A stretch of DNA of 64,000 nucleotides, from NCBI GenBank assembly GCA_030141605.1, contig JAQGDQ010000194.1, positions 248,001 to 312,000 of the forward strand. Direction: 5' to 3'. A program made the translations under genes and the position numbers. Numbering within the stretch: position 1 is the first letter of the stretch; every line of letters begins with the position of its first letter. Of this stretch, positions 10,204 through 36,873 are shown piece after piece. Source of the stretch: Tubiluchus corallicola. Lineage: Eukaryota > Animalia > Priapulida. The notes under the pieces were generated by a model, which saw only the letters and a list, made by a program, of their open reading frames with translations, did not search any database and was not told the origin of the DNA.

Positions 10204-10226
10204 TTAAGAGATCGCCAGTAGTCTAC
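10204..10226 (-). CDS. Candidate terminal coding exon of the multidomain inhibitor gene (GRLLAIS*)
   Basis: ttttttatAG acceptor at 10227-10228; phase-1 reading gives 7 residues then TAA; no homology support. Confidence 0.35.
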
Positions 10227-13468: not shown

Positions 13469-13545
13469 GGTTGACTGGTAGCTCAGTAGGTAGAGTATAG
13501 GAGAAACAAACCCAGGTCTAAGGCTGAAATCCCCGACTCCTTTCT
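13469..13545 (+). mobile_element. tRNA-derived SINE head (degenerate)
   Basis: A-box TAGCTCAGTAGG at 13479-13490, degenerate B-box GGCTGAAATCC at ~13522; no clean cloverleaf. Confidence 0.5.
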
Positions 13546-13675
13546 TCAACTCATTACCCACAATAAGTAAAATAAACCAAAGGATCTTCATAAAAATACT
13601 GGCAATCACAGTCCTAATTAGTAAATAAAATAAAACCCTTTTACACTTTTGAAAAATAAAATATTATAAAATTAC

Positions 13676-13819
13676 CAGTACAGTCTGTGTTGTTTGTTTT
13701 TTTTAATAATTTATTTTGTTTAGTTGCACATTCAAACAAGCAATTGTTGTCATATTTGCGTTTATCATTGCCACACACTGGAGTCGCATGTGATACTTTA
13801 GGACAGTCACACTTATGCT
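13676..13819 (-). CDS. Exon 13: Kazal domain (subtype A)
   Basis: tttttAG / GTAATT, 144 nt, phase 1-1; CDCPKVSHATPVCGNDKRKYDNNCLFECATKQNKLLKKTNNTDC. Confidence 0.92.
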
Positions 13820-14715
13820 CTAAAAACAAAAAATTACAATATAAGCTTCAATAAAAAGTTATCATATTTAATTTATAGTATTTTTAAAACCATTATCACA
13901 TCTAAATATGGAGGAGAGAATAAATTAGCTCTAATTCAAACGTTAATGATTGCAAAAAAGGTTACAGACAGGCAGCAATGAGATCAACAAAGGTTCATAA
14001 CAAATCACAGACATTGTCTATTCACAGCTAAAAATATGAAATAAAGTAGGCAAAGTAAAGAACATATAATTGACATAGATAATCTTCAAAAAATGATAAT
14101 TAAAACAAGGAGAAAAAATTGAGAAAAAATTCTCGTTTTAAATGCTTTAATTTACTTTGTTTTTTCACTTTTTCACATAAAGAAAATTTTTATCCTCAGA
14201 GACGTTAATACAACTACAAGAACATAAATATCTATGCCAAGCTAAAAGACTGCTAAAACAATGAAGCAACTGCTCAACTATCACAGATAAAAATGCATTG
14301 TAAATCTCAAAAGAAACAATGATGTGCAACAATTAAATGTTACATTGCTTGCATGTTTTCACAGCATATTTAGCATGGCAAGTCTTTAAAATATCATTAA
14401 TCTATACTGCACATTAAGCCAAGTGCTCAAACACTCTGCATAAATTAAATACGTTGAAATTAGAACTTGATACATTTATTAAATGCTAGAAATCCATATA
14501 TTCAACGTCTGGTGCTAAGAAAGTTTGGTACATGTTATTTGTTAAAAATGTCTACAAAACACCTGGAAAATGCCTCCACTTCAGAAACATCGAGTAAGAA
14601 AGTACACTCTGTCTAAAGCCCAATGTAGGCAGCTCTGCATACACAATTTGTTTAAATAATATACACACTACATTCTCTACTTTCTCTCTTCAGTTAAAGT
14701 AACAGAAAAACTCAC

Positions 14716-14940
14716 CTTTGAACCATGATACTGAACAGCAGATAGAAAGAACACCTTGTTGGCTTGAAATGCCGATAGTTTTGCCTGTACTTAACTCTTT
14801 AGGTAAGCATATATACCCTTTTGGACAAGAATCATCTCTCAAACACATGCGAAAGCCTGTTTGTGAATCCCAGTCAGGTATAGGTAAAGACTTCCTAGAG
14901 TCGTCCCCACATATAGCAAATTGTGCAGGTAGCTTTAAAG
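14716..14940 (-). CDS. Exon 12: lustrin/WR1-like cysteine-rich repeat
   Basis: ttttctgtaaAG / GTGAGT, 225 nt, phase 1-1; ICGDD...RMCLRDDSCPKGYICLP...LSICCS; absent from the ORF track. Confidence 0.82.
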
Positions 14941-15966
14941 CTTTACAGAAAAAAAGATATCAGATCAAAATGCTCACTAAGAAATTGTATTCTATTTTTT
15001 GCAAACACTTCCAGCTCATGCAAACCGAAAAAAAGCATGCCGCTATAGGACAGCAACTGATTATCAAGGACAACCCACTGAAAGAGAAGACTAAAGACAT
15101 ATATTTGTAAAATGTATCGCAACTTTCTAGTGGTTGAATAGAGAAAATTTGACAAAAGTTCCCTGTATTTATCTTGCCTGTTTTATACAGTGCAATTAAA
15201 ATGTTTCAAAAAAACTGACAAGGCTTGCATTATGTTCCCACACTGTAAACTAGAGACTGCCACTCAAAAATAACAGAAACCCTGTTTTCAATTGAATAAT
15301 TCCACCACAGAAATTTATCAATCAAAAACAATTGTGTAATATGCTTTTTGAGTGGCAGTCTCTAATGTTTTTGTTGCTAAAATCCATGTAGCTTGTTTGC
15401 CATGATAACTTACCGTTTTATTTCGCTGAAAAGCATTTCTTGCCAATTGGGTAAATTGGTATATTGGGGTATATTGGGTAAAAATGGCAAAAATTGGGTA
15501 TATCTAGTGTATGTACACTATTACCAATGTCTACAAGCCACAGTTTGAAAAGTGCATACCGATGTCAATTTCAGCTGAATGCACATGTCAAGCAGAAGGG
15601 ATGCTTATATGGTTTTAGGCCCTGTCAAATCGTTGTATGTCAATAATTAAAACTGATAGTAATTTTAACATGGCACTGTTTGCAGGTGGCAATAATTTTA
15701 ACACTCAAAATCTGAACAAGTGTGACTAACAGTATTCAAAATAAATTCGTTTATTTTGAATATTAGTTATGCAAAAAATAATGCAAATATCCTAAGTATA
15801 CAAGAAGCTATACGAAGTGTGCATATTAGTAGAGAATTTTTCTGAAACAAATTTCATTTTTCAAAACATTAAAATTGAAGCAAATTATGCCAATTAAGAA
15901 GGCCCTCAAAAAGTACACTGTATGACAAACATATTGCGTAGAAAATATATTATAAGAAAAACCTAC

Positions 15967-16131
15967 CCAGTTTAAACAAACAATCAGCGTCACCCTTAGT
16001 TAAGCTTGGATCAATGAGCATAGCACAGGCTAACTTGCAAGGACTGGCATACGCTTTCCCATCGCTTCCACATGTAACAGCAACCATCGGAGGACAACGA
16101 CATAAAGGCAAAATCATTTTATTGGAGCGAC
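15967..16131 (-). CDS. Exon 11: Kazal domain (subtype B)
   Basis: ctgcAG / GTAGGT, 165 nt, phase 1-1; CRCPPMVAVTCGSDGKAYASPCKLACAMLIDPSLTKGDADC. Confidence 0.9.
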
Positions 16132-19100
16132 CTGCAGAACATGAATGAAAACTAAAATAAAATTAATCCAAAGGAATACTTTCCTTTTCATTTTATATTA
16201 ATCATAAATCTTCAAAATTTTTGGCACAAACGATTGACAAAAACTTGGCATAATTTTCTATTCATTATTTAATTTTATTAAAGCATATTGTATAAAGCTA
16301 AAACACTAACACAAAAAATCGAATGAAAGATAGAATACAAGAATATTACACTTTAAAATACAAATCATTTTCATAGTCACACATCTTATTCCTATCTGTA
16401 AGATTTAATAAAATTTGGAAAAGAAACAGTTAACATACAAACAAATTATACAAGAAAAGTATGCTGTTTTCTCCATTTCAGTTTTTGAAGAAATTTTCCG
16501 CAAAGTAATGGATAAAAATTTTACTTTACGTTTACACAGCAACTCAGCGAAGCACCGAAGTCAATCTGCCCCAAGCTCATTAAACGCAGGCTATTATTAG
16601 CACTCTATTTGATTCAATCAATTAGCTTTACAATTTCTGCAATGTCATAACAAAAAATAAAATTATATAAAGGAACAGGGGCATAGAAATGGAACATATG
16701 ATCATCAGGTCAGCTGCTCCTATAATAATAGCTTGTTGCAAGTTTGCTTTGTATAAGGAATTTGCAAATTGTTTTAAAAATAAACGAAAATACTGACAAA
16801 GAATTAGTAATTGCACAAAATACTAAACAAAAAGAAAACCAATACGTGCAAAAGATTAATCAAACGAACTCAGAGTCAAAATATGAATAAAGAACTTGGG
16901 CAAGAAAAACAAAGTAATAATCGAAACCAAAATAATATATAACAAAAAGGAGAACAGTATGTTACACTAATGTAAACAAAGTTCAAGCAAAAATGGAAAA
17001 CATAAATCAAACTCGGTGAACAAACAAAATAATAACTAAAGCAAAATATAACACAAGAGAAAACAATCTAATGATCTTATCACTAATATCACATCAAAAG
17101 GAAGCAAAAAAGAGTAAAATATGCCAAATTAACAAAAAAAATAATGAATAGCATTCTGAAAAATATACATCAGGATCATTCTATATTTTTTGATTAAATT
17201 AAAGTAAGATGTAGATGTTAGTTCTATATTGTGGCACCTTTACATCTTAAAGAATTTTGGCCCGTATTAGTATTGAATTTTTCAATGAGGCATGACCGAA
17301 TATATGCAAATCTGTTTGGGAACTCCAATGCAATCCAGCGCAAGGCAGACACACCAGTAGCAAGAATTGGACTTCCAGTACAAATTTCGTAATATCTTAG
17401 TACAAACTCGGAGTTATCGGAATACTTTTGCAAAATTTTGCAGACATAAATGCTCTACAGTTTTTATGTTGCACAGTTTTAGATACAAGCGATCAATTTG
17501 AAGTTAGAAGGCTTTGCAGGGAAAAATGTGAAGTTTTTTCAATTTTTTAACTAACATGTTAATTACTCCATTAGTAAAAAATCTAAACATTAAATATAGT
17601 GCTAGGAAGAAAATTTAATTCTCTTTCGAAAAATATAAGATTTGCACTACTATCTTACACAGGTAGGCCGCGACTAGGAAGGAATTGTTGGCGTGAAGGA
17701 ATGTAAATTGCTGAACACACATGAATTTGCAATAATTATTAATATTTAACATATTTTGTTTTTACTGAAATGTGCATGCGTATGCACACAATGAAAGATA
17801 TTATGTAGTACCTATTCTGCAAATCTGCACGTGAGCCGAGTCAAAAAGTGATGGTTGATTTTAGAAGCGATTTCTGGCAATTTCATTGTTTAACTAAGTT
17901 TAACCAGGCACAAGTTTTTTTTTGTGATTCCTGATCATTAATTGCTCCTAGTCACTTCAGAAATCAATCCCTATACTTTTCAAAATCACAACTATGGACT
18001 TGTTAGCAAACTGGACCAACTACCACTTACAATATTGATCTTTTTGTCTAATGTCGGTCCATACGAATACCTCAGCTTAGCTATAATGAGCGGCTTTTTA
18101 TGTTTCTTCAGCCTCTCTACATTGCCATCAATGAGTTAACTTGGTTATTATATGCCAGTGGCTTGTTTGATACTGACTACAGATGTCTTTTTTGTGTTGC
18201 CTAGTAATGCTAGGCTTTGTGGACATAATTTAAAGATCACAAAGCCTCGATGTGCATCTGTACGGACCTTGCTAGATGAGTTATAAATGTGCAAAACCCA
18301 TATGAAGTCATCAATGCTTCACCGCAGTCATCTCTGTCAGAACTCCTAATGTTTCTATAACTTTGTACTTCCTATTCATATTCAATTTGTTATTGCCACA
18401 TAGTCCATGAGCCAGACAGCTTTTTGCTGCCACCTTGAGAGTGCTATGATTTTTTTGGAAGTCTATATCTCTACAATACAGTGTCTGGTGGGTCTCCCTA
18501 TGGCACAGCTTAGTGGGACCACTCCCAAAAAGCTGTTTGCACAAATTTTTGCACGGTAAGGACGACACACACTGTTGCCATGTAAGTTATGAGAGTTTAT
18601 TTTGTCTAATCTTATAATGTTCACCATTGTGATCATTAGGATAGTAGCAAAAAAGGACACACACATTCCCCCAAAAATAACCCATTTCAAAACAACCATA
18701 AAAATATCGTACTTATTTTTCCGAGGCTATTTTGTTTTCCTTCTGTAAGTTTTAAACCCACACTGCATGCTATTCTCGACGTAGCTGTATAGAACTCCTA
18801 CACCAGTGGTTACTGAGAGTGAAGCAAAAAATAGTTGAGCAGGGAGCATTTTGTGAAGTTACACACAAAGAGCGATGCCAAGGTAGAGATATTTACGGTC
18901 AAATAAAATGTTATCTATTTTCACTACATTCCAAATTACGTTACTTAGAGGTAACAGCGCTATGCAGATGACTGCAGATGATGGTTACTAGTACACAGTG
19001 TAATTTTTTTGTCCTAAAATGGTCCATTATTCCTGAAGTAAGTTTCTGAAAATCCCCTTAAAATACATTTTACAGCAATTTTGAGCATAGACTCAAATCT

Positions 19101-20440: not shown

Positions 20441-21674
20441 TTATAGTATAGTATATTCTCCCGGCACTCAGATGAATTATCTCACCTAAAATAATTTAAC
20501 TGTCATTTGTGTCAAATATAAGAGCTTGCATTTCAATTCCTGATAAGCTTTTCTGAGCTGACCTTGATCCCATTATACTATACCAAGTCTGCGTTTCGGG
20601 ACTGTTCAGGACTGACTGATTTTATATTCTGTGAATACACACCCAGGTGCAACAAAAATCACCCTGCATGCTGCTAATAGCCTGCGCTAATCAGCGAAAC
20701 AGAGCAGACAACGTTAAATGGCAGGTGACCAGTACAAGCGCAAGGCAAAATTTTTATTCATTAGCTTTCAAAATAACTTGTTCAGATAATGAAAACAAAA
20801 GACACAAGAGAATTTATTTTGTTTGTATATGATTTACGTGCATGTTATTTGTTTTTTTCGAATTTCAATGAGTTTAGAGGGTGGAAAGTTTAGCAAATAA
20901 GGCTTAGCTTTCACCCATCACAGATAATGGGTAGATGTATGTACCCGTCAGAAAGGAGTTAAAAAATTAAAGACCTTTGGTTTCCAATAATACTGCTCCT
21001 CCAGCACAGATGTTTTTCCCTTTACAAATTTTAGGTCCACGGCAACATTTTCTACCAGGGAGACAGTCTGCCTCAGAAATGCAGAACTCCATAAATGGGC
21101 AAAAAGGAAGTCGATCAAGCCATTCTCCGTCAACTTTAGGACATGGAATATGGTCTATAACAAAAAAGTTTCTATTACATGAATTTTAAAATTTGTAATT
21201 AAGCAGCATAACTACAGCAAAGTGAATTGGAAAAATCGTAAATAATTCAAATTGTTATTAACAGTTCAATCATCCTGACTTGATCGAGCAGAAAAATTTT
21301 AGATGAAGAAGGCTATTAACCTCATTGAGCTGCATCTTAACAGCTACTCTTCCTATCTTTCCGAACATTCTTTTACATGTCACTTCTATCTTTGTTTTGC
21401 ACAGTTTTTTTTAAATTGGCTTACACCCTCACTTTTTGTCAGTTTTCGAGCGGTTGTTGTCTGAACCAAATAATATAAGAAAACACCAAAAAACGTTTTC
21501 TTGCAGTTTTTAGAAGTAGGAATATTTTTTCCATTATATCGACCCGACTACTTACATTATCTAAAAAAATGATGCTAAACAAAAGAATAATTCAAGGTAG
21601 TGTAACAATAAACAACTGCATAACATCACTAATGTTAAAAGCATGAAAGATAATGCTATAAGACAAATATTTAC

Positions 21675-21771
21675 CTTTCTTTTCACAAATTGCAAGCATT
21701 GGACAGAAGTCGTTAGCACAGTCAACTGGTACAGTCCTGCATATTTCTCCAATGGAACAAAGTATGCCATT
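21675..21771 (-). CDS. Exon 10: small Cys-rich (follistatin-N-like) unit
   Basis: catatAG / GTAAAT, 97 nt, phase 0-1; NGILCSIGEICRTVPVDCANDFCPMLAICEKK; paralogous to exon 58429-58522. Confidence 0.85.
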
Positions 21772-21956
21772 CTATATGAATGAAAAACAATAAATTAAAA
21801 AATACACCAAAAACACCAGCTGTAAAAGATAATGTAATATATTGCATTGCACTGTATATGTTATAAATGTAAATTCTAATTACAATTTACTATGGTCATG
21901 TTAAAAATTACCAAAACAATTCACAAACATCATAAAAAGTGGTTGAAAAACTTTAC

Positions 21957-22075
21957 CTTACACGGAGATGAGGCACATTTACAAAGTGGACATCCAGACA
22001 CTCTATCTTTCACATAACCATGGTCACATTTGCGATCACAATCCTTTAGATCAAAATCACATTTTGATGCAACTT
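21957..22075 (-). CDS. Exon 9: antistasin-like domain
   Basis: taatAG / GTAAAG, 119 nt, phase 1-0; CDFDLKDCDRKCDHGYVKDRVSGCPLCKCASSPCK. Confidence 0.9.
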
Positions 22076-22720
22076 CTATTACCAGAATAAAAATGTGATT
22101 ATTTTAAACTGCCATTATTTTCCTCTCCAAACAAAATAGCCAAAGAGATACACTAAAGTACAGCCTAAGCACATTTTGAATGTCTACACTCAGTATGTAC
22201 CACACATAAAGAGGTTTGTTTCACCGTGACGATGATGCTGTTATTGTTGTTATTCTTCATGCAATAAGTTTTTACCAGTTTTAATACTGTGACATTACAG
22301 TAGAGTTATTTACATTGTGCAGACCCTGACACACAGTATATGCCTCAGCATGTGAAATTTAAATGTATAGCAAAAATTCAATAACAGTAATATAATTTAA
22401 ACTCAGATGTCGTTTATCAAAAGCTTTCCTGCTACTGAGTGTCATATCACGAATTTAACTCAAACATGTAAGAAGCTCAAACTTTGGACCTTCCTTAGCA
22501 AAAATATTTGTGGAAAAATTATTATGACAATTGAGGTCAGTCCCCGCCCCCATCCTATGTGCTGCGTTCCAACTCATTTTTTTAGCGGTGGCCAACAGGG
22601 TAGATGGACTTTGGACATCAGGCTTAGACTTAGACATAGACCCATTATTCTATGTTCTTACAAAAAATGGGTTTTACAATAATAACAGTGTTACATGATA
22701 CATTCACGTATATCAGCTAC

Positions 22721-22804
22721 AGTAGGGTGTATGTTCCATCTTTGGGTGATTTAATCACCTTTAATTGCCCAATCATGTCCCCCGCGCTGTGAAATGCATT
22801 GGTC
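22721..22804 (+). repeat. Left terminal inverted repeat of the Polinton-like element
   Basis: 84 bp; 6 mismatches (by eye) to the reverse complement of 33673-33756. Confidence 0.95.
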
Positions 22805-23663
22805 CAGAGTTGAGGCATTTCCCCTGTATTTTGGGTAATTGAGAGTAATTTGGGAATTAAATGGACAGTGTGGATTATTCGTGTGGGGGATGTGAAGGAT
22901 TAGGAGCCTAGCACAAGAGTGGTTAGGTACCTGCCCGGGGGTTGCGTACCCCAAATTGGGACCAATCACCCCTTTGTTGTGCAAAAATGCAACACATCGT
23001 TGATGCATAATTGCGGATTAGTAGTTGGGATAATTACTGTTTGCATGGCCCTCTAAACATGCGGAAGGGTATAATTGGGTAGTTAATGCGGCGTACTGGT
23101 GCATCTTTGCTCAACGAAGAGAGAGAGCATTGATCATATAATTATTCAACAATCGCCTCTGGGCTTATGCAGGTAGCTGCCTGTGTGTGTGTTTCTAAAA
23201 GTGAAAGTGAAATACTGTACCTAAATCATCCGCATTTCTAAACCTGTGTGCATGTGCGTGCAACCTGTCAATCAACCAGTTTGAAAGAGACTAGATACCA
23301 GAAATTGTATTTACACAAATTTTATTTATTGAAGCACCTACAATTTTATTTAGTGAAGAATCTACATACATACATTTTAACGTTACAACAATTATTAAAA
23401 ACTAGATTGATACAGATTTAATTTGATTAAAATTAACTTTATCTAGATTTTTTCCTTTTTTAAATTTTATCTTTTATCCAGACTAGATGACAAAAAAAAG
23501 AAAAGTTGCATTTACACAAATGCTTTTACAGATTTAAATAGATGAAAACTACATTTATCTAGATTTTTACTTTTTTAATTTTATGAGGTCAAAGAAAAGA
23601 AAAATTGCATCTACACTGAGTTTTTTACAAATTATGCACATTTAAACTAACAGAGACCCCTTA

Positions 23664-24110
23664 CTAACAGACTAAATAATGAGACACGAATGACATTACT
23701 TTTTTGGGAAATTCCATTTTTTTATCTTTCAAGGTGGTTCCATCATGGGGTGGTTTCGACATGGGTGGCGGAGGCATGGATGCTGCTGCTGCTGGTGGTG
23801 GTACTGCTGTAGGAGGCACCATCTGTTCATCATTATCATCCTCCACTAGCATGCGAACGTCAAAATCATCAAGATTATCGTCACCATCATTGCCAATGCC
23901 ATCATCGTGATTATCATCATCACCATCATCATCCCAAACCTCTATGCGACAATGGCAGGAACGACCTGTTTCCTGCTGATCACACGATGCAGCCTCTAAA
24001 TGGTGCTGTTCAAATCCCATAGTATGCTCTCCTCCTCTTCTCTTTCGAGTATATTGGCTACTGATTAATTTCCTGATTAACGTGCTCACCCATGAACTTT
24101 TGAAATTCAT
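23664..24110 (-). CDS. Element-borne hypothetical ORF, acidic and Pro-rich
   Basis: 148-aa ORF with Asp run and PPP tracts; AATAAA signals downstream on the minus strand (~23320); low complexity. Confidence 0.4.
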   Translation of the reverse strand: MNFKSSWVSTLIRKLISSQYTRKRRGGEHTMGFEQHHLEAASCDQQETGRSCHCRIEVWDDDGDDDNHDDGIGNDGDDNLDDFDVRMLVEDDNDEQMVPPTAVPPPAAAASMPPPPMSKPPHDGTTLKDKKMEFPKKVMSFVSHYLVC

Positions 24111-24226
24111 ATGGCTCCAGATAGATGCATCGCAATTAAAACCGCAGGATGGATTGAATTAGTACATTATGATAGAGTCTTTCACTGATAGACTCACGTC
24201 AAAAGTAGTCGTGATGCCAGACAATT

Positions 24227-24817
24227 CTAGGTCACGCTCGTCATAATGAAGGGCAGTGTATCAGTCATTATGGTAGAGTGTCTTCTCTGCCTGGGGCTGG
24301 ATAGCAATTTTCTATGGTGTTCCTGTCTTCCAATGAAATAATTGATGCAATCTTTCTTGAAGAAGAATTGCTCATATTTGTAAGGCATGAGTCTGACTTC
24401 TGGTAAAGAAGGAAAGGTTGTGTGAGCAACCACTCGTTTTTTACCAATGCAAATTTTAGTATGCAAAATTCCACCTACTGAAATATAATTGCCTCTCCCC
24501 ATGTGAATCATGAATGCTGTTTCGAACGGTGCAGATTTTGGACACTGCCCCCGTGTTTCGCTTGACATTCCCAAATGCTGCGATAAATCCTCCAATTTGC
24601 AAAGAGCAAATCGGACTTTCTGATCGATGATTGAATTGAAGATTTGCGTGGTAGTTTGAAAAAATTTATCGCGCTTCTGGAAGAGAATGCATGCATTGCC
24701 TCCCAAACAATCGCAGTTCACGTGAACCGTGAACCGGTTAGTCAATTGCCAATGAGAAAGTGCCAGAAATCTCTCATTCAGGGTACACGCATGTAATTCG
24801 CCAAACAGAGACGCCAT
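24227..24817 (-). CDS. Element-borne PC4-like (ssDNA-binding/coactivator fold) protein
   Basis: IHMGRGNYISVGG..KICIGK...FPSLPEVRLMPYKYEQF aligns by eye with the PC4 pattern IGKMRYVSV...IDIR...KPGRKGISLNPEQWSQL; a weaker N-terminal copy is possible. Confidence 0.5.
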   Translation of the reverse strand: MASLFGELHACTLNERFLALSHWQLTNRFTVHVNCDCLGGNACILFQKRDKFFQTTTQIFNSIIDQKVRFALCKLEDLSQHLGMSSETRGQCPKSAPFETAFMIHMGRGNYISVGGILHTKICIGKKRVVAHTTFPSLPEVRLMPYKYEQFFFKKDCINYFIGRQEHHRKLLSSPRQRRHSTIMTDTLPFIMTSVT

Positions 24818-26718
24818 TATATCTTTTTACAAGTGACCCATTCTAGTACCGTCAGACTGAATTCAGTACCCATTAAAACCCCCACTATGAGTACGCCATC
24901 ATCATCGCTGCTACTCACGTTGGCACTGCCCCTCGAAAGATCTGAAAAAATAACATTAATTTAAAAAATGCTTATATATATTCGTTGAAAAAAATAATAC
25001 ATATCACAAAAAAGAAACAAAGTTGTGTACAGTTAAACTCACCTCATGCTCATCCGAATTATGCCTACGTCGCACCCAAACTGTCAGATTTTCGCTATTG
25101 TAAACCTGTGTGTTTGGAACAAAACCAAATCAATTGCTGCTGGCTAAACTAGTGGTGACTGTGGTCATAGTATTGGAAGACATGATGCTGGTCTCGATGC
25201 GAGTGATTTTACATTCATCATCGTGGCTCTTTTATAAAAACAAATGTCCCCAGATAATTACAATTAGAAGGGCTTTTTTGGTACAAGTTGATGATGATGA
25301 TGCTTAATCTCATTAGCATCTGAACATTACCAAGATTCTTGCAAAGAAAATTGAATAGTTTTCTTCAAGCAGATGAAAATGAAAAAAGCTGATTAAATTT
25401 TTATCATAATTCGAGGGCACGGCAGATTTTTTCTAAATCCTATAATAATGCTCTTCAATCAGCATGCATCACAGAACAGACTAGCCTCTGTCTTTAAATC
25501 TACCCCCCCCCACACACACACACAGATGAAAAGTCATTTATTTGTGTATCCATAGCCCTGCAGGTGAATAATTAGCATTATTCAGAAACCCATTGTATTT
25601 GTTTTCCAGCATATGCTAAAATGAGATTAACTGCTATCATCGGCATCTGTCTGTGCCATCCTTGCAGGAAACGTTTCATTCATGTCTATAAACTGGAAAA
25701 CAGGCTGAGAAAATCATTTCCACTTCTGTGGCTCTAGAGTGCTAGAGAGTACACAGAGTGCTAGATAGTTAATTGTGCTTCAATCTCGTGTGAGTGTAAT
25801 TTTTCATTTTTCACTCGAGTAAATGCAACTATGTACATTGTTTGGTTAAGTACTTTAAGAAAATATGTGCGCTTTATTTTCTCTCTTAGATTGTCAAAGA
25901 AATTTTGTCTATTTTTAGATTGCCAATTTCTTTGACAGTTTTAGGAGGTAAAATATACAGAAGTCTGTTATTTTATTGTGAATTTCTTTGACAGTTTTAG
26001 GAGAAAACCGAAGAGTTCGGTGGAAGTTTTGCGGAAAATTACGCCCTAAATTTCGGTTAAGTGTAATTTTTTGATTATTTAATAGTGTGAATTGTACTCT
26101 CTTCATTGTAAATGTGTGCACTTGATTCTCTCTCTCGCCATTGTACTGTGCACATTATTCTCTCTCACTCTCTCTCTCTCTATTGTATTCTCTACACTGT
26201 GAATGTGTGCACTTTATTCTCTCTCTCAAATTGTTGCACTTAAAATTTCTTTAGTCTGTTTTAGGTAAAGAATACGAAGGGATTGGCGAAATTTTTGCGA
26301 GAAATTACGCCCTAAAATTCGAGTAAGTGCAACTTTTTCATTCTTTGATGGTGTGAATTGAACTCTCTACACTGTGGCATCTTCTCTCTCTCCTAGATTG
26401 CCAAAGAAATTTTGTCTGTTTTAGAAGATAAAAGTTTGTTGGAACATTTATGCGAATTTGCCAAATAACATTTGGTGTAAGTGTAACTTTTTCATTTTTT
26501 CATTGGTGCAAATGGAACTCTCCTTGTTTGGTGAATATACAAATTTCCCAATTGTAAATTGAGACTACTTTGTTTTAGGAGAAGAAAAATCATCAGTGTG
26601 GCATCAACGACGGCGACAGCGACAACGGTAGTGACAGCAACGATGACAATGACAGCGACGACACCTCAACTTTCTACAGCAGCTGTGTGGACGCTACCTT
26701 TGAGGAAAATAGCTGCCC

Positions 26719-26773
26719 ATGCCAGGTGTGTATTCTAAGAATAAATAAAGAATGCTTTACATATTGTTTGTGT

Positions 26774-26833
<60 letters not shown>

Positions 26834-27848
26834 ATGTTTTTCTTTAAAGGTTTGTATAAAATAAGGGAACACTCTCCAACTCACGTGATGTCAGCACCGT
26901 CACCAATATCAGCACCAGCACCAACACCGCCACCACCACCAGCATCATTACCATCAACAACAGTACCACCAACACCACCATCGTCATCCCCAACAACAGC
27001 AGCACTAGCAGCAGCAGCAACAGCAGTAGCAACAGTGATGAATGTATCGCCCATGCAACCTTCCACTAGCACGGATGAGACTCGTTCCACTTCAAATCGA
27101 CAAATTTGCCCACCCAATACGCCATCATCATTCATCCATCAAGAAAGGTTAGTAAAAAAATCTATCATTAATGTTGTGAAATGCATGTGTGTGCACGTTC
27201 CCCTGTTTACAGATGATTCGTGCTAAAACATGCTTTTTTCTCTTTTCAGTGGACACGAATTCCGTCTAGTGGACAGATGTCATAATGGCCCATTGTACAT
27301 TTGGAGGTGTCAGATTTCAGGTATAGATACAGAATGGATTTTGGATGATATTTCCAATGCCATTGAAATGTTAGGGTATGATAAGCGACGATTTTCGTCA
27401 CAACAAAAACCTCGCAAAAGGTGTTGATAGACAGGTAATTGCGACCCAGGGAAAAACTCACGAAGAGTTTTTGCAAGCATTTTCCGAACAATTGGAAATG
27501 GTGCACAAAAGCATCCGTTTAACCTCCATACGACACCACCTCTTCACTAGTCGTGCTCTCAAAAGATCACTATCTTTTTCTGGTGACAAAATATGCTGGC
27601 TATCAAAAAATTCCTCTCTACCTTATGGTCATTATTTGTTAGATCAAAGAAAACCTATTGTTTCTGCTATCACCCCTCCAGTCAGAACCCAACCTTTCTA
27701 TGGATCCGCTAACGCTGTAGAGAGACCAATATTTGTTGCCAATATCGGTGATGACGACAATGACGATGATGTTGTTGATGATGATGGCAATGACGATAAT
27801 GGTAAAATCACCATTGATGATGATCATGATGATGTCATTGTTTGGTGA
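26719..27848 (+). pseudogene. Element-borne spliced hypothetical gene (Pro/Thr/Ala-rich N-terminus, Asp-rich tail)
   Basis: ATG 26719; GT-AG introns 26726-26849 and 27148-27249 keep the frame (MPG|LYKIREH...QES|GHEFRLVD); frameshift near 27400. Confidence 0.55.
26778..26831. repeat. (TG)n microsatellite
   Basis: Direct observation; lies in a predicted intron. Confidence 0.97.
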
Positions 27849-28231
27849 TATTGGCGACAAATATGATAGGTCCAACATGTCTAAATATTGTATTTATTTT
27901 CTTTTTTTTACAGACAGACAGATGATGGTGTTCGTAAATATGTAAATATTGTATTTTACAAAGTGTAAAAATTTCCCTATAATTATTGTGAATAAAAAAT
28001 ATACACCCACCTCTCTTACTAATTTCTCCACTATTTCCCTCTATAACAGAAAATAATTTGTCACATGTGCCACATTTGTGTGAATCCCTATGACATTGAT
28101 CTGCACCCACCTTCCAGGATCACACGAAATATAGGTCGTAATTTCTCGCATTCTCCCTATAATTTGTCACATATGCTACATTTATGTGAATCCTTATATC
28201 ATTGTGATCTGGTCCACCCTCCAGGACCACA

Positions 28232-28233
<2 letters not shown>

Positions 28234-28271
<38 letters not shown>
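28234..28271. repeat. (TA)n microsatellite
   Basis: Direct observation. Confidence 0.97.
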
Positions 28272-28274
<3 letters not shown>

Positions 28275-28787
28275 TCAATTGTAGTGCATACAATGATTTG
28301 TATTCTCATACCAACTCCAGTTTCTAAATGTACTTGCCCTAACATTTCAATGGCATCCAAAATCAATTGCAGTGCATACAATTATTTGTATTCTCATACC
28401 AACTCCAGTTTCTAAATGTACTTGCCCTAACATATCAGTGCCATCCAAAATTCATTCTATATCTATATCTGAAATATATAGGTTGTCCATCTACCTCTCC
28501 TGGATCACGATATTTACATTTCCTCTCCAGGGTGTAATTTCTCCCAAATTTTCCACCACTATACCATCATAATCCATTTGTACAGAACTTCCTGTCAGAT
28601 GAAAATATAAACTTGGTCTGCTCTTCACTGCTTTCCACCTCTCCAGGATGTAATTTCTCGCAAATTTCCCACTGTCGTACTCTGCACTTTGTTTTCAATG
28701 ATTCTGTGTATTACATCATGTAATTTTTTTCTGATTTGACAATGTTAGCTTTCTCATTGTAATCATGGTCAGTGAAAAAACATTATT

Positions 28788-29232
28788 TATAGATACAAAA
28801 CAATATCAGCCATCTTCTCGCTAGTTGTGGCATAATTTATCAAGTCCACCATGTGTGTGCCACTCACTGCTCGTCCCAAGCGCACGAAACGATCCATTTC
28901 GTCCCAACGTGTTCGATGGGATTTCAAAAAGGAGAGCATTTTTGACCCCTGTTCTTGTACTTGGTGGGTAATGCCTCGATTATGTGAGTGTCTTTCAGTC
29001 AGGTTCTGGTAGCACCGCCATCATCCGTGGAGGTGGGGTTTTTCAAATCTTTGATCACCCGAATCATTTCACTTCTCATCTTATTTTCCACGATGGGTGG
29101 TAAATATTTATCGGGTGGTAAACCTCGAGAGGACAATTCCGTCGTTTTCTGTTGAATTTCCACAGTTTTCTGCTCGGCAGGCGTGTCTAGAATAACGCGC
29201 GCATGTTTTAGTAAAACCATCTGAGAACACAT
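28788..29232 (-). pseudogene. Polinton conserved ORF (PW-like), frameshifted
   Basis: Starts QMVLL; continues over frameshifts as IIEALPTKYKNRG..KMLSFLK..RWDEMDRFVRLGRAVSGTHMVDLINYA, resembling the W..G...G..I.GSNIVDLI motif of the ORF that follows the ATPase cassette in animal Polintons. Confidence 0.62.
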
Positions 29233-29235
29233 TTT

Positions 29236-29611
29236 CTATTTCTTTCTTTTTTTATCGCGGAGTGTCTTCACCATCCGAGCCATGCTGGTGGCAGCCGAAG
29301 TGGCACTAAATATGCCTGCCAAGAGTGGTATGATTGGAAATATTCAAAGAGTGGAAGGCCACACGTCTCCTGGCCTTCAGTGTGGAACCGGCACGTGCCA
29401 ATTTTCTCAGCACATTGTGCTGACCCCTCAGTACCTTTATCAGTTTGGGTTTCAACTTTACATTAGCACGTAGTATGTTAAGAGCGCATTCTGCTAAAAA
29501 ATTAACCGCATCAGTATCGGCCCACTTTAAGATCTCCCTCCGATCTCAAGGTTTGGCACAGGCCAGTTGCTTGAGAAAAGGCTTGTGATGTCTAATATGA
29601 GCTTGAGTCAT
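29236..29611 (-). pseudogene. Polinton small basic virion-protein-like ORF with hydrophobic C-terminus
   Basis: FLKQLACAKP*DRREILKWADTDAVNFLAECALNILRANVKL...VLRKLA then (frameshift) IFPIIPLLAGIFSA...KKRKK*; the ECALNIL motif is typical of the ORF directly after the Polinton ATPase. Confidence 0.7.
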
Positions 29612-29659
29612 TTTTACCACTGCTATTGGTTCGATGACTCGTGCAGCAAGTGCCATTTT

Positions 29660-30254
29660 GCTTATCTCATTTTGGGGTTGAAAAACCAATTGTGGTGCTT
29701 CGTGTTGAAATATGTTACTTCTCATGCGAATGCCATCATCGGTTTCCTGATGCAAATCGAATAGCGCGTAAGAAAAGGGTGCTGCCATGGTGCACTCGAA
29801 AGCGTCTACAAAAGATTTCGATTTACCTGGATACATTTGTCTACCCAACACTTCCACCTGCATCTTGTCGTGCAGATTTTTGAATAACACCAAGTAGCGA
29901 GTGTTTAGACTGCGCATTCTCGATTGTTTGCTCTGTTCAAAAAATTTTGCATGATGGAAACCACGAAACATGGTTTGTGGTGTACTAGCTTTATGAACAT
30001 ATCGGTCAGCCGCTTGGAAGAGGCTAATTCCGTCATCATGTCGTCCACCACCACCAGATCTCCTGTGTGTATTGCAACAATTATGCCCTCGCTGTACCAC
30101 ACTTCTCGCAATTCTTCATGAGATGAGGGTGGTGGGGGAGGTGTTTGCACAATAGAGGACTAAATTTTTTACAAGTGTTTTTTTGAGCACGACCGGGTCT
30201 GGCCACCAACATGGTGCTACCAAATTTCAATTTCACATCGTAAGTTTGCTCCAT
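29660..30254 (-). pseudogene. A32/FtsK-like DNA packaging ATPase, frameshifted
   Basis: Degenerate Walker A after STMLVA, Walker B DLVVVDDMM, IMQN, SLNTRYLVLFKN, LGRQMYPG, PFSYALFDLH, RMRSNIF, spread over three frames. Confidence 0.88.
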
Positions 30255-30406
30255 TGTAATTAACGAATAAATTAATCGGCATTCCTTTATATGTTTATCA
30301 AAAAAAAATACCACGCGGCTTACAGTAGTTGGACGTGTTCAAACGTGTTTTTATCTCACAATAGGCATTGTGTCGTATTTGAGTAATCCTTTGATTACGG
30401 CACGCC

Positions 30407-32051
30407 ATGGCGCTTTGGCGGGAAAACGATCAGATAGACAGACGCCAAGGCATCATCACATGTGCTATTGTTGGCGGCATTCTCCCATTGGTTGGCGTTA
30501 ACCGGGAGAGAGCACGTACATATTGGGGTGTTTTGGGAGAGAGTTGCCACATCTGCTTTGGATGGCGAGAGGATAGCACACAACCACATCTCTCTCGTCA
30601 CTGATGAAAACATTTCCGCAATGACGATGGAAAATGATACCATGGTGTTTCCTCTGACACAAGATTTGTCGACATCTCTTTCATCTTTAGATGAGCAGTA
30701 TCAGGTGAGTAAATCTTTATTATTTTTTCTGCTATTTTGAATAGTCGAACACTGTTTTCCTTTTTTTATTTGGTGGCAGGGGGCAGGAGCGGCAAGTACA
30801 ATGCCGATAGCGAAACATTCACTAGAGGAAAGTATGTGTCTTTGACCGTGATGGAATACTATCGGCCTCAAACGAGGAAAACACTTAAACAGATCTAGAA
30901 ATAAAACTGTCCGGCAAAACGAGTTTCCTGCTAGAAGACCCCGTGCCGCTCTTCATCTTTCCCGAACAGGCTTTGAGTCGGGAGGCCATGTTCACACTAT
31001 TGGAACCGGAAATGGTTGCCAAGATGACTGCAGCTTTAAAAATTTCACACTACTGGACGAAGGAGAAGGCAAAGTACCATCGTCATTCGGTGCCATATTT
31101 CTGTCCGGGCACACCTACATATTGATCAGTCAATGGGCATCTCACCCCAGCATAGCCATCAGACGAACAGTCGAAAGAGTGAAGAGGAAAGATGGAGACC
31201 ACAGTGCTACCACACACATTCCAACCAAACCCAGCATCAACCTCCATCTGGAGGAATACAAAAAACTGCAGGGGGAGATAGACGAAATAGTCAACGATGA
31301 GGGTTACTAAGAATGTCAGTTGTCACCGCGGCGTAGAATTGCAGTTTGGCAAGGTTTCCTCTGCATCGAGGAAGTGTCGATTATAGATGGAAAATTGATA
31401 AATGGACAGTATGCCATCATCGGTAGAAGGGGCCGCAGAATGTTGAGAGGAGCGGAGACTCGTACAGGAGAAACTGGGCAAACTGGATAGCTAGAAGTCT
31501 GCAAGCACCACAACCGCTGCTGCTGTCAACCCCACCACCACCATTGTCGACACCGCCACCAACACCAGCCCTCTGAGTAAAACCAGGCGTGGGGGAGGGA
31601 AACAATTAAACATCTTTCAGGAGAAAGATGAAGAAGAGCTTGTAGTTTCGCTGACGCCCCCTCCATCGCCCCCGCGCCTCCTGCCCCCAAAAAACCTAGA
31701 AAAATTCTGAAAGAAAGGCACATCATGTAACACGTGATGATGATGCCGATCAATAATCCTAAAACTATTGATCTTCTTCTCTTGCAGGATTTCAAACAAC
31801 CACTGGAGGATTTCAAGCAACCTCTAATCACTGTAACTCGCAAGCAACAACATCCACAGCTGAGGCAAGCGTGCAATCCTCGTAAGACTGGTAGCAGCAG
31901 GGTCATAAAAAAATACACCTTCGAAAAAAACAAGTTTCTGGAATTTGTCAACAATCACAAGCAAATCGTCAACGAGGGTAAACTGGTTCCCGATTGCGTA
32001 GAAGGGGTCGGCTGCAGTGGCGCCAGCACCATCAACGGCACAGATGTCTAA
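30407..32051 (+). pseudogene. Element-borne hypothetical genes (fragmented, one probable intron)
   Basis: Run of GC-rich ORF fragments divergent from the ATPase; CAG|GTGAGT donor at 30705, pyrimidine tract and AG at 30779; no recognised domain. Confidence 0.4.
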
Positions 32052-32400
32052 ATCGAGCATAGTTGCCTTCCAGTGTGGAAAACAAGAATACCAGGTCAAA
32101 AATTTGGTAATTTGCGAAATAGAGACCGGTACATATCACAACTACATACACTTCAAACCGCCCCACCCATGGAATCGGAGGAAATGCTCGAGTATGCAGC
32201 ATTGAACAGCATCCTACATCAGACCACCAGAGACAGGATCACCTACGTCAAGGGCGCAGAGATGTACAATTTAATCAAAAAACATTTTCCCAAAAATCAC
32301 ATAGTCATACGCGTAGAGGATCTGGAGAGTGATCATCTGGCACCCGCCATACGTTGGCAGAGCAATGGACGAGGCAGAGTGATTCGGGTGTCCGAATTGA
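32044..32400 (+). pseudogene. Putative DEDD/RNase H-fold nuclease-like ORF seen in invertebrate Polinton-type elements
   Basis: IVAFQC...YQVKNLVI....HFKPPHPW, then after a frameshift EYAALNSIL....TYVKGAEM...VIRVEDL; recalled family pattern IVD.QGF..VKELA..FKPP..W / IYVKG.EK; first acidic residues not conserved. Confidence 0.5.
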
Positions 32401-32419
32401 TTGCCAACCACGTTCTAGC

Positions 32420-32991
32420 ATGCCAATCCGGACGGTCAAAATCGTCGCCTCGACTTCGTTCTCGCAGCACTTCGATCTGAAGTAACTCCACCGGAGAGTG
32501 GGCGGAAGGCGCTACGAATGGAAACTGCAAATGCTTCTGCTAAAACGGCTGGGTGGCACACTGATGATTTTTGCCTTCGGCTCCGTGGTGACTAATGGTT
32601 TTCCCAGGAAAAAGAACTACGGAATGCGGTCGAAGAACTCTAGAAACGACTCAGACTGACACCCGCCACGAAGATTGCAGTTCGCACCATCACCGCCAGA
32701 GCTAAAATTCCCAGCAGATTGGATCTAGGTGCGCTGTACGAAAAACTTGTTCGTCCGCCACAATCGTTCACACATTCTTTTAGAGAAGTGTTTTACGAAG
32801 TGGAACTTTTTCCCAAACTAACTTGTGAATGCAAACAAATTACACTAAATATTTTTCACACTGGAAGCATGCTGATGGGTGGGACAAGCGTGAAAGATTT
32901 CTCTCGCATTTTTCTCAAATTTGTGTTTAACAGAAATAACGTTTGCTTGTATTATATGCATGATGATAATAATTTATGTACTTCACTATAG
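32420..32991 (+). pseudogene. TATA-binding protein (TBP)-like gene, both core repeats; two stops and one frameshift
   Basis: Repeat 1 VKIVASTSFSQHFDLK*LH...Y...MLLLKR..GTLMIFAFGSVVTNG versus TBP QNIVSTVNLGCKLDLK...TALIFSSGKMVCTG; repeat 2 VRTITARAKIPSRLDLGAL...FYEVELFPKLTC..KQITLNIFHTGSMLMGG versus SYEPELFPGLIY...VLLIFVSGKVVLTG. Confidence 0.85.
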
Positions 32992-33672
32992 TGACATCAT
33001 TAATCTAGCTTTAGTAACTTACGTAATTTATGTTGACAAAATGTATGTAGTTTGTAAAAAAAATTAGAAATTTTTGTAAGCTATCAATAAAAATAGCGAC
33101 ATCATTAATCTAGTTTTAGTAATTCATGTCAACACAATGTATATATTTTGCAAAAAATGTAAAAATTTTGTAATCTATCAAAAAAAATTGTGAATATGCA
33201 TTTATCAGGCTTTGTCGTTTGGACGAAATAAACCCAGGCAATTATTAAGTCGTCATTACAAAATAAATAAATAAACCCAGACAAAATTAAATCGTCGTTT
33301 ATCGACAAGCAAGGACTCATCGTTGCAACTTAAACCCAGACAATAATTAAATCGTCATTTATTAACAAATGAGGGTTTGACGACACGAGAAGAGAAGTGG
33401 TCGTGGAGAATTCACTGGTGCTGCCAGTGCCACCTCCGTAGAGACCCTGAAAAAAGATCTCCCTCATTGAGAAAGTAGGACGATTTCATTATCCTCGTCG
33501 CGGAGGGGCGGGGTGGGACAACTAGGGTTACCCAACCCCTGAGCAGGCGCCTAACCCCGGGGCAGGGTCCCTAGTTCATCCCAACCTCTCCAGCAGAATC
33601 GCTGGGTGGGTCCACTGTTCATCCTCTAATTACCAAAAAACAAAAGAAAACTAAGCCAATACAAAAAATATA

Positions 33673-33756
33673 GACCAATGCATTTCACAGCGCGGAGGAC
33701 ATAATTGGGCAATTAAAGGTAATTAAATCACCTGAAGATGGAACATACACACTACT
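33673..33756 (-). repeat. Right terminal inverted repeat of the Polinton-like element
   Basis: Reverse complement of 22721-22804, followed by TSD AGCTAC. Confidence 0.95.
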
Positions 33757-35315
33757 AGCTACAATTAAAACCAATCACACACAACATCATAGTAACTTTT
33801 TATGTGATTCATTCAGGACTAATAGTAGTCCATTTATACTTGCAATCCCACTTTAGTGAGATCACAGCACTTTCACCAAAGAAGTCATAATTCAATAACG
33901 AATTTAAACTTTGTGATTATTCAGCTTGATTTCAAATTAAGGCAAGTATAACAAACTTGCAGAATTGTTCTATCAAGTGGCATATTTTATGCAATTTTAC
34001 ACTTTAAGGCTACACAACTAAAATAGGAAATGCAGTACAAAATTTGATCACTCTGTATGACAGAAGAATCACTTGGCACAACTGACACTACAAATAACTT
34101 TTGTTTACTTTTGCTTCACTCGTATTTGATCAAAATAAGCTTCCTTCTTACATATAGTTATCATTCTCCTAGATATGAACGTTAAACAAACATATTGCTT
34201 TACAAACAGACAAATACATTTAGTTTGCTGCACTAGTCCTTACAGTGTACAGGGTGAGCAAAAATTCTTTTGCTCATTAAGGAAAATTAAATACTTGATA
34301 CTGAGAAACTTGAAAGTTGCAACATTGTGAATACGAATTCCTAGATTTTCTTTCACAAGTATCGGACAGATAATACCCTATAGGCAGCACTGTGATCAGC
34401 AGTAGCAAAAAGCTGGTATCAACAGTATCAGCATCGGCAGTCTAATACATAACAAACAATGTTATTGTACCCTTTTTGAATGCAACTACTCCACACTGAT
34501 GGATCTAACTGATATGGACCAGCATCACGGCCACTGCAGTCACCAATATTATCTTGATTTTTTTAATGGGAGTGTACAAATGACAGCATATTATTCACCA
34601 GTTCCTAACTTCACACTAAGTTCTTAATTATAAAAGCAAGGATAATAAAGACACTATATAGTACCCGAAGAAATGCTGCAGCAAGCATGGCAGAAGAAAA
34701 AGTAACATTTAGATATGTTACAGAAAACAAATGAGGCACTATGGCAAAAAAACTAAAGCTGCATTCTATGAAACAAATCTTTGTTTGTAGCTAACTGTAT
34801 TGTGTAACACATTTTTATAATCAGGAAAGGGCTATACATTGACATGGACATCACACTTGTTAAAGAATTGGTTTTCTTAAACACTGTTGCCATTTAAAAA
34901 TGCATGATGTAACTTCTTGTAAAATTTCTTGAAGCAATATTGTTGATAAAAGCAGCTCTTATGAATTTCATACCAATTATTTGCTTAAATAAGTTTGATA
35001 TGTTTTATTTATGCAACTTCTATGCAAGCTGCTTTTAAACCATATTAACCTATTCAAAATCTTCCTTTTAGACAGTGAGCCTTCATTTAATGTTTTTTGA
35101 CATGAACCACCTCACTGACTGATGAACAACTTACACGTTTCATTGCCTGAGTGTAATAATGAATAACAACAAATTTTCAACACCAATTGCAGTCTACAGG
35201 TACATTTTGTAGATACAGGACAGTCTACACTTCAACATTTTGTACATACTTTAACAGCAAGTGTTATAAAAATAAACCTTGAATTTATCTTCATAAAGTG
35301 ATACAAAATTCGAAC

Positions 35316-35528
35316 CTTGCGTATCACAGTTTTGTGCATTACGTGTTCCCGGAATAACATAACCTTGTGCAGTGACACACCATGAGTAACCATAATGAGC
35401 ATGATTTTGCTTTGACTTGTATCCACCAGAAGGTAAACATTGGGTTCGATGAATTACAGACATCGTTTTTCCTAAAGAATCTAGCGTTTGCCGTTTAAGA
35501 TCTTCATTGTATTGTTGAACCTGGCAAG
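35316..35528 (-). CDS. Exon 8: thyroglobulin type-1 domain (4-Cys form)
   Basis: atttcAG / GTTCGA, 213 nt, phase 1-1; CQ...HRTQCLPSGGYKSKQNHAHYGYSWCVTAQGYVIPGTRNAQNC. Confidence 0.9.
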
Positions 35529-35703
35529 CTGAAATGACATTTTCATTTATTATTGACAATATTTAGTTTTTTTTAGCAAAAATCGCCATTGTTTCTCACT
35601 ATCACAATCCCAATATATTCTTGAAAGTCGTTGTCCAACCACTACAGCTGCTGTATGACTTGGATAGATCAGCTGTGAGCTGCTACTCAATGTTGCTAGA
35701 CTA

Positions 35704-36873
35704 CAGTGATATGATACCTCGATATACGAAATTAATTCGTTCCGAAGGAGCTAAGAATCTTAGCTCGTATCTTAGAATTTTCGTATTATATTACAAGATT
35801 TACCTTGTAAATGGCATGATTCCTTTAAGCCAGCCCGTAAACAGTCGTATCAAATGTAAATATTGTACCCACCCGAAAGAAATACGTTCATTAATGACTG
35901 ATGGTCGAATGGTTTCGCTCATACTCCCTTGCGATAGCACTTAAATGCATGCCGCTTTCATATTCAGGGCTCGTACTCTACTTTTTAAAAATATAGGACA
36001 TTATTCTAAAAAATATACTACATTTGTTGAAAAAAATATAGGAATTATAGGAAATTTTTCGTTAAAAACGAAAGTTTCTAACCTTACACTACAGTGATTT
36101 TCACAATTTCTTTGCAAAAGAAAATGATTTTTCCTACCTGTAACAGGAGAGCATTCGTTCGTTGAAGTTGGTATTGTCATTGAGCGGCTAATACTCTTCT
36201 GGGTATGCTCTTTCGCCACCTGGAATTGTTCAAAATTATATTTTACAAAAACAACATGAGCAGGAAGAACCATTACGGAAATGATATACAATGTCTAGCA
36301 CAATGAACTAACATTGGTTAAAAAACATGATAATATATGTAATATCTAGAAATTGAAGAACATGAATGAGCACCTATGAAAGATTCGTCAAAGAACAAAA
36401 TTTAGCACGATTATTGCAGAATATCACTACATGGAGTGAATTACACAAAACACCATGTGATATAAGTCCACAGAATGCATACAGTTATCATTGGGCCACC
36501 TTATTAGGTGTTGGTTGATCCTAAAAAACTATCCATTTCATGTGACAATAATCAGCCATAAAAACTTTGTACTAACCGTTCAGGGATTTTCGAATCTTGC
36601 ATTCACACGTCTTTAGAGCATACACCAGAACCATCAACCACGCAATGAAAATACCAACTCTGCAAAAACATACACACTTCGCGACAGACAACTGTTATTT
36701 ACATTCACTAAAATTCACAAATCGTGAAGATATGTACTTATGATATCTAATTGTGGTTATGCGCGCCGAAGAATACCGATAACATTCTCATTTCATTGAG
36801 AATTCATGATTTTATAAGAATTACAGGACACTTTTACAGTTTTATCAAGTTTTTGTAAGTCGAGGTTCCACTG
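35704..36873. mobile_element. Tigger/pogo-derived non-autonomous DNA transposon
   Basis: TA|CAGTG...CCTCGA left end and TCGAGGTTCCACTG|TA right end; TA duplication. Confidence 0.65.

What the first reader, a model, noticed from the sequence alone, without database searches (positions are those of the whole stretch)
22721..33756. Intact-ended 11-kb Polinton-like element lacking polymerase, integrase, capsids and protease
Seen: perfect 6-bp TSD, AGTAG termini and 84-bp TIRs, so it integrated as a unit. The ATPase > small basic ORF > PW-like ORF cassette stops at ~28790, and I recognise no pPolB, rve integrase, jelly-roll capsid or cysteine protease. Most of the length is accessory genes (TBP-like, PC4-like, nuclease-like, spliced novel ORFs). 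Inference: either a post-insertion deletion derivative, or a helper-dependent satellite/segment mobilised in trans that specialises in regulatory cargo.
Basis: partly seen in the sequence, partly recalled or inferred. Interest (0 to 1): 0.8.

Follow-up and report, generated by a model that had tools for sequence, protein, structure and literature searches.

The report
Decayed, internally deleted Polinton fossil
This is a broken copy of a virus-like jumping element (a Polinton/Maverick) inside an animal gene's intron: its ends survive, but it has lost or wrecked the genes we could identify, so it is most likely an ordinary fossil and not a new satellite virus.

Summary
The ends are real: a 6-bp target duplication, AGTAG…CTACT termini and 84-bp TIRs, which are only 78/84 identical. 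'Lacking polymerase' is wrong. The C-terminal ~87 aa of pPolB lie at 27384-27644 (+), scoring 36 bits against a background best of 5.8. Profiles found no integrase, major capsid, minor capsid or protease. The retained genes are broken too: the ATPase, the small basic ORF, the third ORF and the TBP-like 'cargo' all carry frameshifts or stops. In public contigs, both ends and the left 4 kb sit near single-locus depth. The right half matches a roughly 85-90% identical, high-depth relative family that also has the TBP-like and PC4-like region. A few low-depth relatives show different internal gaps. No second copy with this 11-kb layout was seen, although no genome was available for a proper census. 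Best reading: a dead, deletion-eroded Polinton (0.72). An old trans-mobilised defective subfamily is not excluded (0.22). An active regulatory-cargo satellite is unlikely (0.04).

The parts
22715..22720 (.). left target-site duplication AGCTAC
22721..22804 (+). left TIR, 84 bp, 78/84 identical to the right TIR; position 6 departs from the (AGT)2 end motif
22818..22958 (+). imperfect subterminal inverted repeat, pairing with about 33529-33649
   Evidence: local score 53 vs maximum 39 in 200 shuffles
23664..24158 (-). acidic/proline-rich open frame of unknown function, left accessory region
   Evidence: no family
24227..24817 (-). 196-aa ORF without detectable homologs; nuclease label not supported
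   Evidence: no hit; Pfam sub-threshold only (E 0.02)
25842..26522 (.). degenerate direct-repeat region, spacings about 90-270 bp
26579..27226 (+). low-complexity frames around a (TG)n tract; possible exons, untested
27314..27376 (+). short segment with an inverted paralog at 28337-28475; matched by high-depth relatives; resembles the pPolB region upstream of the tail by eye only, profiles do not support this
   Evidence: negative:
27384..27644 (+). remnant of the pPolB C-terminus (last ~87 aa); the rest of the polymerase was not detected
   Evidence: iE 4.7e-7; hhalign probability 87; 36.1 bits vs 5.8; best of 20 shuffles 6.0 bits
28275..28451 (.). 88-bp tandem duplication (94%), part of the inverted paralog; likely a rearrangement scar
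29309..29611 (-). small basic ORF (PM by position), homolog of L003's 113-aa ORF, premature stop at 29546-29548
29699..30254 (-). A32-like packaging ATPase pseudogene: pieces in different frames, Walker A region not matched by the profile, internal gap at 30146-30155 relative to a sibling
30852..31310 (+). frame ending in a PC4-like segment (lead only)
   Evidence: nearest Atlas clusters are viral PC4, scores 0.89 and 0.87; model pLDDT 47, uninformative
32169..32480 (+). 103-aa ORF of unknown function, shared with the high-depth relatives
32531..32991 (+). TBP-like pseudogene: homolog P0010 aligns in two different frames; two in-frame stops lie upstream of the open part 32644-32991
33673..33756 (-). 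right TIR with intact (AGT)2 end motif
33757..33762 (.). right target-site duplication AGCTAC

Best explanation
This is a Polinton/Maverick insertion with surviving ends, a polymerase remnant and broken core and accessory genes; it was most likely a full-size element that has been dead and eroding by deletion since around the time it inserted. SHOWN: the ends, the target duplication, the pPolB tail, lesions in the ATPase, small basic, third and TBP-like genes, and no detectable integrase, capsid or protease. INFERRED: a Polinton retroviral-type integrase made the insertion, the 6-bp duplication being its known signature. The parent had two gene modules facing the centre, with accessory regions at both ends. 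One deletion removed most of pPolB, upstream of about 27.3 kb. A second cut the third ORF at about 28,811 and took the integrase/capsid/protease genes that follow it in L003's gene order. Point mutations, indels and a local inverted/tandem duplication then accumulated neutrally. TBP-like and PC4-like are ordinary accessory genes of the parent lineage. The element is predicted to do nothing now.
For: pPolB tail inside the element. Lesions in retained genes. The lesions are not assembly errors: locus-depth contigs match the window with 0-1 differing letters over these genes (two of them with one gap each), while relatives differ by indels at the breaks. TIRs are 7% diverged, with one end motif mutated. 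In run X1, bins over 22568-26703 have depth 183-277 and the bin with the right end 233, against flank bins of 191-205; the right half has 2,809-18,276. In run X3, 3 contigs run on unlike the window beyond 28811, and one contig each in X1 and X3, at locus depth, is listed across that junction (505 pieces not shown). A low-depth relative has a different internal gap, joining 30325 to 33317. The same insertion junction appears in a second sample and study, X3 (33387-34228, 0 differences). Convergent modules with flanking accessory regions are described for vertebrate Mavericks (PMC8097293), and 96% of vertebrate loci are degraded.
Against: No genome was held, so TIR-bounded copies could not be counted. 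Contig depths are not copy numbers, tables were cut, and a filter drops records. Low-depth relatives share the pPolB tail and parts of the 27.8-28.7 kb spacer, which a shared defective ancestor would also give. High-depth contigs did not cover the pPolB tail (depth 390-624 at 27420-27723), so the high-depth family is not shown to be complete or to be the parent. The 196-aa ORF is still open. The MCP profile rests on only 4 sequences, so a very diverged capsid fragment could be missed.
Confidence: 0.72

Rival explanations
1. The large deletions came first. A defective Polinton genome kept its origins/TIRs, was replicated and integrated in trans by helper proteins, and left a few copies that have since decayed (an old non-autonomous subfamily).
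For: Both ends and the target duplication are clean while most core genes are gone. At least one relative at homozygous-locus depth (191; 43 differences and 16 gaps over 342 bases) and some at half depth share the pPolB tail and the spacer. One shares the right subterminal region. polB-lacking Polintons that stayed mobile are reported in butterflies (10.1101/2025.02.07.637071, passages).
Against: The spacer would also be shared by complete siblings, because it is where the two modules meet. No second contig bridging the 28,811 junction is listed. One sibling carries a different gap. The ends stay near single-locus depth.
Confidence: 0.22
2. A currently active, helper-dependent satellite or genome segment that is kept for its regulatory cargo (TBP-like, PC4-like).
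For: Only about 1.6 of 11 kb is recognisable core-derived sequence. A homogeneous high-depth relative family exists that could act as helper.
Against: The TBP-like gene is frameshifted and stopped. The TIRs are diverged and one end motif is mutated. There is no multi-copy signal at the ends or over the left 4 kb. The cargo region is shared with the high-depth family, and PC4 also occurs in the complete Polinton L003.
Confidence: 0.04
3. An assembly artefact: a collapsed or mis-joined repeat made the short layout and the frameshifts.
For: No single contig spans the whole element, and run X1 may be the sample the window was built from.
Against: Contigs with 0 differences cross both outer junctions in X1 and the right junction in X3. 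They also cross the 28,811 junction in both X1 and X3.
Confidence: 0.02

Closest known systems
Degraded Maverick/Polinton genomic fossils (PMC8097293; passages and section 7 read)
   Same: (AGT)2-type ends, TIR length within their 46-1,447 bp range, atp followed by two small ORFs, modules on opposite strands facing the centre, flanking accessory regions, stop and frameshift decay
   Different: At 11.0 kb it is below their intact range (12.7-24.6 kb). Here pPolB is on the opposite strand from the ATPase, whereas in vertebrates ppolb and atp share a module. The host looks like an invertebrate (inferred from GC content and gene content, not identified).
Complete Polinton L003 (IMG/VR contig, 12.3 kb)
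   Same: ATPase > small basic ORF > third ORF order; homologous ATPase (45%), basic ORF (26%) and pPolB tail (29%); carries a PC4-like gene
   Different: L003 has intact pPolB, rve integrase and protease (Pfam) and capsid-sized ORFs labelled by position and recall, all on one strand, and no TBP-like gene
polB-lacking mobile Polintons of butterflies (10.1101/2025.02.07.637071; passages read)
   Same: TIR-bounded Polinton without a working polymerase, alongside fuller relatives
   Different: Those were found as similar, polymorphic insertions carrying retroelement cargo. This copy is decayed throughout and no second copy of its layout was seen.
Adintoviruses (10.1101/697771; passages and section 6 read)
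   Same: Animal Polinton-type virus with accessory genes; degraded germline relics are described
   Different: In the passages read, TBP homologs are named only in figure legends on other MELD viruses, not as a gene of animal adintoviruses

Membership tests
Polinton/Maverick (by descent) | 6-bp target-site duplication | tested here: met
Polinton/Maverick (by descent) | TIRs with (AGT)2 or (AG)3 end motif | tested here: met
   84-bp TIR; right end intact, left end has one mismatch (motif)
Polinton/Maverick (by descent) | A32-like packaging ATPase gene | tested here: met
   present as a pseudogene
Polinton/Maverick (by descent) | pPolB-derived sequence | tested here: met
   C-terminal remnant only
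Autonomous Polinton / polintovirus | intact pPolB | tested here: not met
   only profile positions 1014-1099 of 1101 match
Autonomous Polinton / polintovirus | rve integrase | tested here: not met
   9-sequence profile, best in-element iE 0.35, equal to host background
Autonomous Polinton / polintovirus | [quoted passage not shown] | tested here: not met
   profiles of 4, 8 and 8 sequences; no in-element row among the best four shown for each; thin profiles limit sensitivity
Non-autonomous, trans-mobilised family | several independent insertions sharing the same deletion breakpoints | tested here: inconclusive
   contig lay-downs show none, but no genome was held and tables were cut
Cargo-specialised satellite | intact cargo genes | tested here: not met
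   TBP-like gene split over two frames with stops
Cargo-specialised satellite | expression or packaging by a helper | not testable with these tools
   no RNA holder listed; this is no evidence either way

The most novel reading that the evidence does not exclude
This is the fossil of a non-autonomous Polinton subfamily that spread in trans after losing polymerase, integrase and capsid genes. Its helper is a still-abundant animal Polinton lineage that carries a TBP-like and a PC4-like transcription-factor gene.
Probability: 0.22. Interest if true: 0.55.

Novelty: new member of a known kind. Interest (0 to 1): 0.2.

Why it matters
As a single fossil it matters little: most animal Maverick loci are degraded. 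Two side points have some value. First, if shared breakpoints were found at several sites, it would add a case of Polinton complementation in trans, so far suggested for polB-lacking butterfly elements. Second, the high-depth relative family in this animal appears to carry a TBP-like gene. My searches found no paper on TBP in animal Polintons (search listings only, plus passages). That family, not this copy, is the better target.

Tried and rejected
(1) Whole-frame Pfam scan with X at stops: 0 hits in 9 of 9 proteins. It also missed the known TBP domain, so it is discarded as a negative. (2) PHROGs: 0 of 16 ORFs hit. (3) TIR pattern in metagenome contigs: 2 hits, both inside a long unrelated ORF with no blastn or tblastx match to the window, so chance. 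(4) Viral-contig scans with the window's ATPase piece and with the TBP homolog found no relative; the scan with L003's MCP returned only L003. (5) My idea that 27227-27376 and 28241-28381 are further pPolB pieces, first N-terminal and then palm region, was not supported by profiles. (6) 196-aa ORF: no homologs; its fold was never run because the machine was busy. (7) PC4-like model pLDDT 47, so no fold search was run. (8) No RNA holder listed; not evidence. (9) Run X5 covers only 8 of 30 bins and hardly the flanks, so it says nothing on presence or absence of the insertion. (10) Earlier-findings look-ups were empty. (11) Kapitonov and Jurka 2006 was not held. No supplements were read. Break positions are approximate, taken from ORF lists, profile hits and contig tables.

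Full report
Boundaries. The element runs from 22721 to 33756 (11,036 bp). AGCTAC flanks both sides, the termini read AGTAG…CTACT, and the TIRs align over 84 bp with 6 mismatches. Chance cannot give this: about 9e-28 such pairs are expected in 64 kb. One mismatch is at position 6, so only the right end keeps the (AGT)2 motif described for vertebrate Mavericks (PMC8097293, section 7). A much weaker inverted similarity continues to about 240 bp (score 53 vs a maximum of 39 in 200 shuffles). The element is 41% GC against 33-35% in the flanks. It lies between minus-strand exons with Kazal and thyroglobulin type-1 domains, so most likely in an intron of one animal gene.

Polymerase is present as a remnant. 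An ATPase alignment retrieved one complete 12.3-kb Polinton, L003. Its pPolB residues 1058-1144 of 1146 hit the window at about 27390-27650 on the + strand. A profile from 60 of the 120 listed pPolB homologs (those of at least 1000 aa, first 60) scored 27387-27644 at iE 4.7e-7; the next unrelated hit in the 64-kb window had iE 2.1. Twenty shuffled elements gave at most 6.0 bits against 23.5. A C-terminal profile of 130 sequences gave 36.1 bits against a best of 5.8 among 2,088 host-flank pieces. hhalign gave probability 87. No other part of pPolB was detected. Neighbouring pieces that resemble pPolB by eye were not supported.

Missing genes. Profiles from 12 viral Polinton contigs were run over all six frames with X at stops. 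Integrase (9 sequences) had a best in-element iE of 0.35, the same as a host hit. Minor capsid (8), major capsid (4) and protease (8) had no in-element row among the best four. The same run recovered pPolB, ATPase and the basic ORF. The capsid labels for L003's ORFs come from position and recall, not from a Pfam hit. The absence is credible but rests on thin profiles.

The retained genes are broken. The ATPase profile matches in two different frames and not at all over its first 55 positions; by eye the 5' part is spread over further frames. The small basic ORF has a stop at 29546-29548. The third ORF has a stop at 28999-29001 and a frame change near 28940. The TBP-like gene has one database homolog, P0010, 56% identical, with two TBP repeats. 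It aligns to the window in two frames, with two stops upstream of the open part. So the 'regulatory cargo' is a pseudogene in this copy. The PC4-like label is a lead only, and PC4 also occurs in L003 (E 0.003). L003's third ORF does not hit the window's third ORF, so 'PW' is unverified; by the order atp-pm-pz it would be PZ.

Copies. No genome was held, so I laid public contigs on the locus: 4 of the 6 listed runs and 3. X1 may be the source sample, and summed depth is not copy number. In X1, single contigs with 0 differences cross the left junction (20630-23334, depth 180) and the right junction (33388-35884, depth 191). X3, from another sample and study, crosses the right junction too. Bins over 22568-26703 have depth 183-277 and the right-end bin 233, close to flank bins of 191-205. 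Bins over 28772-32907 have 2,809-18,276, with single contigs of depth 11,000-13,700 in X1. In X3 such contigs have depth 536-596, against 8-39 for locus-specific contigs, and are roughly 85-90% identical to the window. So the samples hold an abundant, homogeneous relative family (genomic copies or free virus; contigs cannot tell) that shares the ATPase, the two small ORFs and the PC4-TBP block but does not match these ends at 85%. In X3, 3 contigs run on unlike the window beyond 28811, which places a likely deletion break there. One locus-depth contig per run is listed across that junction (505 pieces not shown). Low-depth relatives also exist. One (depth 191) follows the pPolB tail and spacer with 43 differences and 16 gaps, and others lie at about half that depth. 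One (depth 195) has a longer ATPase interior and joins 30325 to 33317, so it lacks or rearranges the PC4-TBP block. Against my reading: these relatives share the spacer, and high-depth contigs do not cover the pPolB tail (depth 390-624), so the abundant family is not shown to be complete.

How it most likely arose. A Polinton with convergent modules and accessory regions at both ends was integrated by a Polinton integrase, inferred from the 6-bp duplication. It lost most of pPolB and the genes downstream of the third ORF by deletion, suffered a local inverted and tandem duplication, and has since decayed. Diverged TIRs, lesions in each identified gene, unbroken junction contigs and the same insertion in two samples all point to an old, neutral insertion. 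The order of deletion and insertion is not settled: about 0.72 for private decay, 0.22 for an old trans-mobilised defective subfamily, 0.04 for an active cargo satellite and 0.02 for artefact.

Comparison with print. Of vertebrate Maverick loci, 96% are degraded (PMC8097293, passages). Partial Polinton copies and remnants are described in C. elegans (10.1101/2024.01.15.575659, passages) and anole (PMC3014272, passages). Missing core genes are common in coral endogenous viral regions (PMC11131425, passages). polB-lacking but mobile Polintons are reported in butterflies (10.1101/2025.02.07.637071, passages). PMC6431247 (passages) gave background only. Searches for TBP or PC4 with Polinton (listings) found no treatment in animal Polintons; the adintovirus preprint names TBP only in legends on other MELD viruses (passages). 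Supplements were not read and could bear on this.

Verdict. The feature is real but ordinary: a new member of a known kind, interest 0.2. The abundant TBP-carrying relative family is the better follow-up.

Noticed in passing
window 11993-62643, minus strand (exons near 12190, 13775, 35382, 45147, 62439): Host gene with Kazal and thyroglobulin type-1 exons that appears to span the window; Pfam confirmed 3 of the 3 exons scanned. The element sits in one of its introns.
   Followed up: partly
window 28772-32907, runs X1 and X3: An abundant, homogeneous relative family (single contigs at about 60-70 times locus depth in X1) shares the ATPase, small ORFs and PC4-TBP block; its full gene content is unknown.
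   Followed up: partly
run X5, 5,931-bp contig matching window 28924-29000 and 29267-29345: A related element whose contig continues about 5.2 kb beyond the third ORF, unlike the window; sequence not available.
   Followed up: no
window 27314-27376 (+) and 28337-28475 (-): Inverted internal paralogy with an 88-bp tandem duplication; both parts are matched by high-depth relatives; identity unresolved.
   Followed up: partly
window 24227-24817 (-): 196-aa ORF still open, with no homolog in 1.84 billion representatives.
   Followed up: partly
window 54709-56303 (+): Broken pogo/Tigger-like DNA transposon: BrkDBD, HTH_Tnp_Tc5 and DDE_1 domains.
   Followed up: partly
window 384-1844 (+) and 7140-8262 (-): Decayed LINE pieces; RVT_1 hit at 384-728; the second region is LINE-like by eye only and its scanned ORF had no Pfam hit.
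   Followed up: partly
window 3383-4328: Inverted repeat pair of 72 nt (76%) 802 nt apart, possibly an old MITE.
   Followed up: no
L003 1-12321: Complete 12.3-kb Polinton with about 277-bp terminal inverted repeats that do not start with AGT, and a PC4-like gene.
   Followed up: partly
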